From Candidatus Jordarchaeales archaeon (GTDB lineage Archaea; Asgardarchaeota; Jordiarchaeia; Jordiarchaeales; Freyrarchaeaceae): 10,851 nt of DNA. The translations under genes were made by a program, and so were the position numbers. The stretch lies in NCBI GenBank assembly GCA_038858525.1, contig JAWCFL010000053.1, positions 1-10,851 on the forward strand, read 5' to 3'. Below are positions 7,624 through 7,923 of this stretch, piece by piece. Positions within the stretch are counted from its first letter, which is position 1. Each line of letters begins with the position of its first letter. The notes below the pieces were generated by a model, which was given only the letters and a program-made list of their open reading frames with translations, was not told the origin of the DNA and did not search any database.

Positions 7624-7771
7624 TTTGTCGCTACACCTTCTTAAACACTTTCATCTGCAGGAAATAGCGGAGCGAAATTGGAGCTCAGAATCCTTTTAAG
7701 TCAAAAGTAGGAAGATCTTAATGATGAAAAGAGGAACGGAAAAATAGGCCTCCTGCGGAGGAGAGGTTTCC

Positions 7772-7840
7772 GTTGCGAATGATGACTACGACGGTCTTCC
7801 GAGCTACGGCTGTGAGGAGCTAAAAATGAGGACTGACAAC
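7772..7840 (+). ncRNA. Candidate C/D-box 2'-O-methylation guide sRNA (sRNA-A)
   Basis: C box AUGAUGA 7779-7785, guide 7786-7798, D' CCGA 7799-7802, GC-UACG-GC hairpin, C' UGUGA 7811-7815, D box CUGA 7833-7836, and flanking GUUG/CAAC. The D' guide is complementary to the conserved LSU rRNA segment AGACCGUCGUG (sequence recalled from memory). Confidence 0.75.
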
Positions 7841-7854
7841 TTAAGAGGGAGAGC

Positions 7855-7923
7855 GGTGGGGGCGTCATTCAAATGCCTTCTCGTCACAGCATCAGACTCT
7901 CTTTTAAATCATCGCCACCCACC
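7855..7923 (-). ncRNA. Candidate C/D-box 2'-O-methylation guide sRNA (sRNA-B), double guide
   Basis: Terminal stem GGUGGG(U)GGCG/CGCCCCCACC, variant C box (AUGAUUU 7912-7906 or GCGAUGA 7915-7909), D' CUGA 7895-7892, C' UGUGA 7888-7884 and D AUGA 7868-7865. The guides pair with ACUCUCUU and CAAAUGCCUU, two neighbouring LSU rRNA segments (from memory). AAAAAA-TATTTAG at 7959-7947 predicts a start near 7923. Confidence 0.78.

What the first reader, a model, noticed from the sequence alone, without database searches (positions are those of the whole stretch)
7772..7840. Hidden C/D sRNA predicted to methylate the LSU rRNA cytidine equivalent to yeast Cm2959
Seen: a full C-D'-C'-D layout with a C(UACG)G tetraloop hairpin between D' and C'. 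The D' guide UACGACGGUCU pairs over 11 nt (one G-U) with AGACCGUCGUG, which I recall as conserved in archaeal and eukaryotic LSU rRNA just 3' of the U2585 region. The fifth-nucleotide rule gives the C at E. coli position 2590, which corresponds to yeast C2959, methylated via snR73 (established, from memory). I could not assign a target to the D guide (7816-7832), so it may be an orphan guide.
Basis: partly seen in the sequence, partly recalled or inferred. Interest (0 to 1): 0.7.

Follow-up and report, generated by a model that had tools for sequence, protein, structure and literature searches.

The report
Asgard rRNA-methylation guide RNA (C2590)
This is a genuine but ordinary small guide RNA of an Asgard archaeon that most likely directs sugar methylation of one cytidine in the catalytic centre of the large ribosomal RNA, the same position that yeast and humans methylate with snR73/U35.

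Summary
Window 7779-7836 (+) carries a complete box C/D layout: C AUGAUGA, a 13-nt spacer, D' CCGA, a short hairpin, C' GUGAGGA, a 14-nt spacer and D CUGA. A strict four-box pattern hits only this locus in the 2.09-Mb genome and none of six control sequences.

Orthologues lie next to purA in all four other genomes of the family (pyrG also present in two). Boxes and the D' guide core ACGACGGUCU are invariant, while the D guide and flanks drift. Five Heimdallarchaeial genomes carry a guide RNA with the same D' guide, 13-nt spacer and CCGA box.

The D' guide forms 10 Watson-Crick pairs plus one G-U with 23S AGACCGUCGUG of same-genus and same-family relatives. The host's own 23S is not assembled. 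The +5 rule selects the C at E. coli position 2590, which is yeast Cm2959 (snR73) and human Cm4506 (U35).

Published guide RNAs of Ignicoccus (sR27, sR124) and Pyrobaculum (sR30) are predicted to target the same site. This is therefore a new member of a known kind. The D guide has no rRNA target above chance (orphan).

The scan's first readers noted similar guides on other DNA.

The parts
7779..7785 (+). C box AUGAUGA
   Evidence: UGAUGA is invariant in all 10 aligned homologues.
7786..7798 (+). D' guide spacer (13 nt). Positions 7787-7797 (UACGACGGUCU) pair with 23S AGACCGUCGUG. G7794 is the +5 nucleotide.
   Evidence: 10 Watson-Crick pairs plus 1 G-U with the 23S of G002 and G004, a unique best hit. 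The core ACGACGGUCU is invariant in 10 homologues. Shuffle P about 0.016.
7799..7802 (+). D' box CCGA (variant of CUGA)
   Evidence: The same column reads CUGA in the G004 orthologue and CCGA in the other nine. CCGA D' boxes are common among the RNA-seq-identified guide RNAs in the Dennis 2015 supplement.
7803..7811 (+). D'-C' linker with a short hairpin (G7803-C7810, C7804-G7809, loop UACG)
   Evidence: In all 10 homologues the linker ends are self-complementary on inspection, with different sequences. RNAfold draws a stem for 8 of the 10. Stems run from 2-3 bp in Jordarchaeial copies to 4-5 bp and long nested hairpins in Heimdallarchaeial copies.
7812..7818 (+). C' box GUGAGGA (variant of RUGAUGA)
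   Evidence: The UGA-GA columns are invariant in 10 homologues.
7819..7832 (+). D guide spacer (14 nt), orphan
   Evidence: The best rRNA run is 7, below the shuffle median of 8. Sequence and length (12-14 nt) vary among the five family orthologues.
7833..7836 (+). D box CUGA
   Evidence: Invariant in 10 homologues.
7772..7775 (+). 5' half of a possible terminal stem (GUUG), pairing with CAAC at 7837-7840
   Evidence: Complementary in the window. Broken in L138 and G003 (CAUC) and positioned differently in other orthologues. Weak support.
7837..7840 (+). 3' half of the possible terminal stem (CAAC)
   Evidence: Same as the 5' half.
7741..7748 (+). A/T-rich TATA-like element about 27 nt upstream of 7772 (inferred promoter)
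   Evidence: Sequence only. A/T-rich stretches lie 30-40 nt upstream of the C box in most orthologues. Not tested.

Best explanation
Window 7772-7840 (+) encodes a box C/D guide RNA of about 60-70 nt in an Asgard archaeon.

Inferred from the well-established archaeal mechanism: L7Ae binds the kink-turns formed by the C/D and C'/D' box pairs, and Nop5 and fibrillarin then assemble on them. The 13-nt spacer upstream of D' base-pairs with nascent 23S rRNA at AGACCGUCGUG (E. coli 2587-2597, between helices 92 and 93 next to U2585 of the peptidyl-transferase centre). Fibrillarin then methylates the 2'-OH of the cytidine paired to the fifth guide nucleotide upstream of D'. That cytidine is the E. 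coli 2590 equivalent, which is yeast Cm2959 and human Cm4506.

The second (D) guide has no detectable rRNA target and evolves freely. It is most likely an empty guide that only supplies the second half of the symmetric particle.

Shown here: the boxes, their conservation, the guide-target complementarity and its register, and the presence of the enzyme genes. Inferred: transcription, particle assembly and the methylation itself.
For: - All four boxes are present with archaeal spacing. This is the only match to a strict four-box pattern in the genome, with 0 matches in six controls.
- Orthologues occur in all four other genomes of the family. They sit between pyrG and purA in G002 and G003, and next to purA in G001 and G004, where the contigs end before pyrG.
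- Alignment A1 of 10 homologues has invariant UGAUGA, ACGACGGUCU, C-GA, UGA-GA and CUGA columns, while flanks and the D guide vary and carry 1- and 2-nt indels.
- The D' box reads canonical CUGA at the same column in G004, which fixes the +5 register.
- The D' guide forms 10 consecutive Watson-Crick pairs plus a G-U with a single 23S site in same-genus and same-family rRNA. This meets the criterion of at least 9 consecutive Watson-Crick pairs used by Dennis et al. 2015. Shuffle P is 0.016.
- The same site is targeted in the same register by the RNA-seq-identified guide RNA IHOsR27. IHOsR124 also targets it, as does Pyrobaculum sR30 through its D' guide (alignment C2864 = E. coli 2590).
- Eukaryotes methylate this cytidine via snR73/U35. 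The Rfam SNORD35 consensus has the same ..GGUCUU|CaGA D' register.
- The genome encodes an adjacent Nop5-fibrillarin pair and L7Ae.
Against: - The host's own 23S is not in the assembly, so the target is inferred from relatives, although the stretch is near-universal.
- No Rfam family reaches its gathering score. The best hit is sR11 at 18.1 bits against 39.
- The D' box is non-canonical (CCGA), and the spacers are 13 and 14 nt rather than the typical 12.
- The terminal stem is weak and not conserved.
- The guide was not found in the six genomes of the sister family, even allowing up to 3 mismatches.
Confidence: 0.85

Rival explanations
1. It is a real box C/D RNA that pairs with the 23S site but acts mainly as a folding chaperone. 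In this reading it does not methylate C2590, or methylates a neighbouring nucleotide, because of the variant D' box and the 13-nt spacer.
For: The D' box is CCGA and the spacer is 13 nt in all ten homologues. Dennis et al. 2015 propose chaperone roles for some guide RNAs and describe non-productive guides. Position +1 (U7798) faces a U in the target.
Against: The +5 pair is a Watson-Crick G-C inside a 10-bp perfect helix. CCGA D' boxes are frequent in catalogued archaeal guides that are predicted to be active. The eukaryotic guide with the same register (CaGA D' box in the Rfam consensus) belongs to a family whose target site is methylated to about 93-96% in yeast.
Confidence: 0.08
2. It is a chance arrangement of short motifs, or a decayed relic that is no longer transcribed.
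For: There is no expression evidence. The fold energy does not differ from shuffles (z = 0.36). No Rfam hit reaches threshold.
Against: Boxes and the D' guide are invariant across five family genomes and five Heimdallarchaeial genomes, while neighbouring bases vary. The strict pattern matches 0 times in six control sequences. A lack of stable folding is expected for guide RNAs.
Confidence: 0.04
3. The conservation reflects a small protein gene, the 55-codon minus-strand ORF at 7701-7868, or a regulatory element of pyrG or purA.
For: An ATG-started 55-aa ORF overlaps the region on the minus strand. The locus lies in the pyrG-purA intergenic gap.
Against: The ORF has no Pfam match. The orthologues differ by 1- and 2-nt indels inside it. 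Conservation is concentrated exactly in the box motifs and in the rRNA-complementary guide, not in codon-like periodicity. The Heimdallarchaeial homologues sit in an unrelated gene context.
Confidence: 0.01

Closest known systems
Ignicoccus hospitalis IHOsR27 (and IHOsR124), RNA-seq-identified C/D box sRNAs (Dennis et al. 2015, PMC4644070, Additional files)
   Same: The D' guide contains ..AACGACGGUCUC directly before the D' box. The +5 nucleotide is therefore the same G, pairing with the same 23S cytidine (E. coli 2590 equivalent). The paper's alignment marks I124/I27 in this stretch of the 23S; column positions are lost in the stored text, and my own pairing puts both guides at C2590.
   Different: It comes from a different phylum (Thermoproteota). 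It has a canonical CUGA D' box, a different D guide and different C-box spacing. Outside the guide and boxes there is no sequence similarity, so common descent cannot be told from convergence.
Pyrobaculum calidifontis sR30 (Dennis et al. 2015)
   Same: Its D' guide is predicted to methylate alignment position C2864. This is E. coli 2590, because alignment position 2880 equals E. coli 2606.
   Different: It is a double guide whose D guide targets C2880 (E. coli 2606), 16 nt away. The window's D guide has no rRNA target. I could not retrieve the sR30 sequence for a direct comparison.
Eukaryotic snR73 / U35 (SNORD35, Rfam RF00211) / AtU35
   Same: It guides methylation of the homologous cytidine: yeast Cm2959, human Cm4506, Arabidopsis Cm2949. 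In the Rfam consensus the guide also lies next to the D' box in the same register (..ACGAUGGUCUU|CaGA), with a non-canonical D' box.
   Different: The eukaryotic RNAs are longer (the model has 88 positions). The window scores 13.7 bits against a gathering score of 36. The proteins differ (Nop56/Nop58/Snu13 in eukaryotes against Nop5/L7Ae in archaea). Homology by descent is not shown.
Heimdallarchaeial homologues found here (genus g36, including record CP070695.1; loci L143-L147)
   Same: They share the same phylum, the same 13-nt D' spacer with the ACGACGGUCU core, the same CCGA D' box and a hairpin between D' and C'.
   Different: Their D guide is conserved ((G/A)AGUUGCACUU) and pairs over 10 bp with domain II of their own 23S. 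Three of the five carry a 33-36-nt D'-C' linker that folds into a nested hairpin. The gene context is different.

Membership tests
Archaeal box C/D sRNA (2'-O-methylation guide) | C box RUGAUGA near the 5' end and D box CUGA near the 3' end | tested here: met
   AUGAUGA at 7779-7785 and CUGA at 7833-7836. Both are invariant in 10 homologues.
Archaeal box C/D sRNA (2'-O-methylation guide) | Internal D' and C' boxes giving a symmetric C-D'-C'-D layout, total length about 50-70 nt | tested here: met
   D' is CCGA (CUGA in G004) and C' is GUGAGGA. The C-to-D span is 58 nt.
Archaeal box C/D sRNA (2'-O-methylation guide) | Guide spacers of about 12 nt | tested here: inconclusive
   Spacers are 13 nt (D', in all 10 homologues) and 12-14 nt (D). 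This is one to two nucleotides longer than the canonical 12. I did not test whether that is tolerated.
Archaeal box C/D sRNA (2'-O-methylation guide) | At least 9 consecutive Watson-Crick pairs with rRNA or tRNA spanning the +5 position (criterion of Dennis et al. 2015) | tested here: met
   The D' guide forms 10 Watson-Crick pairs plus 1 G-U, with +5 as a G-C pair, against relatives' 23S. The D guide does not meet the criterion.
Archaeal box C/D sRNA (2'-O-methylation guide) | L7Ae, Nop5 and fibrillarin encoded by the host | tested here: met
   Nop5 and fibrillarin are adjacent at C17:33266-34718, and L7Ae is at C2:66442-66714.
Archaeal box C/D sRNA (2'-O-methylation guide) | Expressed as a discrete small RNA, with methylation at the predicted nucleotide | not testable with these tools
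No modification data are available for this lineage.
Rfam archaeal sR families (Pyrococcus sR1-sR60) and SNORD35 (RF00211) | Covariance-model score at or above the family's gathering score | tested here: not met
   There are no gathering-level hits. The best scores are sR11 at 18.1 of 39 bits and SNORD35 at 13.7 of 36 bits. I do not file it in any Rfam family.
Functional group of guides to the 23S/25S C2590-equivalent (IHOsR27/124, Pca sR30, snR73/U35) | Guide register that puts the +5 nucleotide opposite the first C of UUUAGACCGUCG | tested here: met
   By direct comparison, the window and IHOsR27 share ..CGACGGUCUN followed by the box, and the SNORD35 consensus has the same register with one guide difference (..CGAUGGUCUU|CaGA). 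Position numbering comes from the E. coli-numbered alignment.

The most novel reading that the evidence does not exclude
The Jordarchaeial and Heimdallarchaeial guide RNAs and eukaryotic U35/snR73 are one vertically inherited gene. In this reading a D'-position guide for the peptidyl-transferase-centre cytidine was already present in the Asgard ancestor of eukaryotes. It would be a traceable archaeal orthologue of a specific eukaryotic snoRNA. The alternative is repeated convergence on a favoured site.
Probability: 0.15. Interest if true: 0.55.

Novelty: new member of a known kind. Interest (0 to 1): 0.3.

Why it matters
It adds a well-supported, unannotated guide RNA to the annotation of a little-studied hot-spring Asgard lineage. 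My paper searches found no published C/D sRNA catalogue for Asgard archaea.

It also shows that a ribose methylation in the catalytic centre of the large subunit has guides in Thermoproteota, in two Asgard classes and in eukaryotes. The guide lies next to the D' box in every guide whose placement I could read: IHOsR27, IHOsR124, Pca sR30, the ten Asgard copies and the SNORD35 consensus. That is a modest but concrete data point for how far the eukaryotic rRNA modification pattern predates eukaryotes. It does not reveal a new mechanism.

Tried and rejected
- Rfam at gathering and at permissive thresholds gave only sub-threshold C/D-type hits.
It returned almost only chance matches inside bacterial coding genes. 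The single useful hit was the Heimdallarchaeota record CP070695.1.
No expression test was possible.
- The host 23S was not found by Rfam model or blastn. Contig C11 starts at the last ~90 nt of the gene, so it sits at an assembly break.
- D-guide target search: no rRNA site beats shuffles. aragorn found only 11 tRNAs. The genome also holds 43 withheld N-runs of about 97 nt, so tRNA targets remain untested.
- Two 13-nt perfect complements to the D guide elsewhere in the genome (C16:40995, C14:12131) lie in no sense-strand ORF. I treat them as chance.
- The single-sequence fold has z = 0.36, which is uninformative, as expected for guide RNAs.
- The upstream AUGAUGA at 7721-7727 (weak sR20 hit) is not conserved in orthologues. 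I rejected it as a box.
I replaced it with a Python regular expression.
- A relaxed search (up to 3 mismatches) found no copy in the six genomes of the sister family.

Full report
**What is in the sequence**

The + strand of window 7772-7840 reads as follows:
- GUUG at 7772-7775, then CGA.
- C box AUGAUGA at 7779-7785.
- A 13-nt spacer CUACGACGGUCUU at 7786-7798.
- D' box CCGA at 7799-7802.
- A linker GCUACGGCU at 7803-7811, with G-C and C-G pairs closing a UACG loop.
- C' box GUGAGGA at 7812-7818.
- A 14-nt spacer at 7819-7832.
- D box CUGA at 7833-7836, then CAAC at 7837-7840.

A strict regular expression for the four boxes with archaeal spacing matches exactly once in the 2.09-Mb genome, at this locus. 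It matches 0 times in the reversed genome and 0 times in five block-shuffled genomes.

**Organism and machinery**

The window is contig C53 of a 63-contig assembly with 47% G+C.

The genome search places it in the same phylum as genome G098. G098 is sequence-identical at the hit to the record CP070695.1, 'Candidatus Heimdallarchaeota archaeon'. The host is therefore an Asgard archaeon. Ubiquitin-type E1 and E2 genes in the window fit that placement.

Earlier notes of this scan call the genome Candidatus Jordarchaeum (Jordarchaeia). I did not verify the class.

The genome encodes an adjacent Nop5-fibrillarin pair and L7Ae.

**Conservation**

A blastn-type search found the region in all four other genomes of the family: three of the same genus and one of a second genus.
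- In G003 and G002 the locus lies between pyrG and purA, as in the window.
- In G001 and G004 purA is adjacent, and the contigs end before pyrG.
- Six assemblies of the same species carry it unchanged, apart from one base in the 3' flank of one of them.

In the five family orthologues the C box, the guide UACGACGGUCU, the C' core and the D box are identical. The D' box is CCGA in four and canonical CUGA in G004, at the same column. The D guide differs in sequence and length (12-14 nt), and the flanks diverge with 1- and 2-nt indels. That pattern fits a guide RNA with one selected guide. It does not fit a coding frame, so the 55-codon minus-strand ORF, which has no Pfam match, is rejected.

A pattern search of 400 Asgard genomes for the guide core plus box found real copies only in two groups: this family (5 of 5) and one Heimdallarchaeial genus (5 of 22). 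The other five forward hits lie in coding-like sequence without boxes. That number is in line with the 10 hits of the reversed-pattern control. The six genomes of the sister family lack it even at up to 3 mismatches.

The Heimdallarchaeial copies share the 13-nt D' spacer, the CCGA box and a hairpin between D' and C'. They have their own conserved D guide, which pairs over 10 bp with domain II of their own 23S.

In all ten sequences the ends of the D'-C' linker are self-complementary on inspection, although the linker sequences differ, and RNAfold draws a stem for eight of them. This suggests a closed C'/D' kink-turn.

**Target**

The host assembly has no 23S. The gene sits at a contig break: C11 begins with its last ~90 nt. 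I therefore used the 23S of G002 (same genus) and G004 (same family).

The D' guide has one best site in each, UAGACCGUCGUGA. It forms 10 consecutive Watson-Crick pairs plus a terminal G-U, and the +5 guide nucleotide G7794 lies opposite the first C of ACCG. This meets the published criterion of at least 9 consecutive Watson-Crick pairs spanning +5. Of 2000 shuffled guides, 1.55% do as well anywhere in 16S plus 23S.

In the E. coli-numbered archaeal alignment of Dennis et al. 2015 this C is position 2590, which is an A in E. coli.

Yeast Cm2959 is guided by snR73 and is 93-96% modified (PMC5199042). The same site is human Cm4506 (U35A/B), Arabidopsis Cm2949 (AtU35) and Dictyostelium Cm3292 (PMC8817022). 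The equivalence of 2959 and 2590 follows from Um2921/Gm2922 = U2552/G2553 and from the absence of indels in this stretch. That step rests on established knowledge and my own count.

**What is already known about this site in archaea**

Three catalogued archaeal guides point to the same cytidine:
- The supplement of Dennis et al. lists IHOsR27, whose D' guide ends ..AACGACGGUCUC|CUGA. This is the same register as here.
- IHOsR124 forms 8 bp with +5 on the same C. The paper's alignment marks 'I124/I27' in this stretch of the 23S; column positions are lost in the stored text, and my own pairing puts both on C2590.
- The main text states that Pyrobaculum calidifontis sR30 uses its D' guide for alignment position C2864. 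Alignment position 2880 is E. coli 2606, so C2864 is E. coli 2590.

The Rfam SNORD35 consensus also carries the guide next to D' in the same register (..ACGAUGGUCUU|CaGA). The window scores only 13.7 bits against a gathering score of 36, so it is not a member of that family.

The RNA is thus a new member of a known functional group, not a new kind of element.

**The D guide**

The D guide's best complementarity to 16S or 23S is a run of 7, below the shuffle median of 8.

The tRNA search is incomplete. aragorn finds 11 tRNAs, and the genome holds 43 withheld N-runs of about 97 nt.

Two 13-nt perfect complements elsewhere in the genome are not in sense-strand ORFs, and I treat them as chance.

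Together with its rapid divergence among orthologues, I read the D guide as an empty or decaying guide. Such guides are common: about one third of the catalogued guide RNAs lack rRNA targets.

**Mechanism and limits**

The most likely function is fibrillarin-catalysed 2'-O-methylation of the 23S C2590 equivalent, directed by the D' guide. The modified nucleotide would lie between helices 92 and 93, next to U2585 of the peptidyl-transferase centre. Dennis et al. describe this region (helices 90-93) as an archaeal methylation hotspot.

Shown here: the boxes, conservation, complementarity, register and enzyme genes. Not shown: the transcript, its ends, particle assembly and methylation.

Deviations to keep in mind are the CCGA D' box, the 13- and 14-nt spacers, and a weak, non-conserved terminal stem.

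**Verdict**

This is an ordinary, well-conserved archaeal box C/D guide RNA in an Asgard lineage for which I found no published catalogue.

First readers of this scan noted guides to the same site on other DNA (e1-5423989, e1-5395136, e1-5424827). I did not check those.

The most novel reading still open is vertical descent linking the Asgard guides to eukaryotic U35/snR73. Shared D' placement and register are compatible with it. However, guides in Thermoproteota target the same site, and convergence among archaeal guides is frequent. I give this reading about 15%.

Noticed in passing
window 7856-7923, minus strand: A second, convergent C/D-type guide RNA lies 16 nt from the first, tail to tail. 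Its boxes are variants: C GCGAUGA, D' CUGA, C' GUGACGA, D AUGA. It has a G/C-rich terminal stem and is conserved in all five family genomes. Its D guide pairs with CAAAUGCCUU of the G002 23S, and its D' guide partly pairs with the nearby ACUCUCUU. Another follow-up has already covered it (e1-5425502).
   Followed up: partly
window 247-1703, plus strand: Adjacent, overlapping genes encode a ubiquitin-conjugating E2 (UQ_con, 247-708) and a ThiF/E1-like enzyme (684-1703). This is a eukaryote-like ubiquitin-type modifier pair, typical of Asgard archaea.
   Followed up: no
window 7735-7774, plus strand: A nested hairpin (AACGGAAA...UUUCCGUU enclosing CCUCC-UGCG-GGAGG) lies immediately upstream of the guide RNA, with z = -2.9 against shuffles. 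G004 has a hairpin of different sequence (z = -1.9). The other three orthologues are not significant. It could be a processing or promoter-proximal structure, or chance.
   Followed up: partly
L143, L146, L147 (Heimdallarchaeial genomes G098, G107, G108), about 1516-1551: Three of the five Heimdallarchaeial homologues carry a 33-36-nt D'-C' linker that folds into a nested hairpin, unusually long for an archaeal C/D guide RNA. Their conserved D guide pairs over 10 bp with 23S domain II (G101:C9:71240).
   Followed up: partly
genome G000, 43 sites (for example C20:1504-1599, C22:4325-4422): The genome holds 43 runs of N, each about 92-100 bases. These appear to be withheld stretches. aragorn finds only 11 tRNAs, so tRNA-directed guide targets cannot be assessed here.
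   Followed up: no
G000:C11:1-90: Contig C11 begins with the last ~90 nt of the 23S rRNA gene and its downstream region. The rest of the gene is missing from the assembly, while the 16S is intact on C12:4061-5556.
   Followed up: partly
G000:C16:40995 and C14:12131: Two 13-nt perfect complements to the orphan D guide. Neither lies in a sense-strand ORF of 60 or more codons. They are probably chance, given the AT-rich, start-codon-like composition of the guide.
   Followed up: partly
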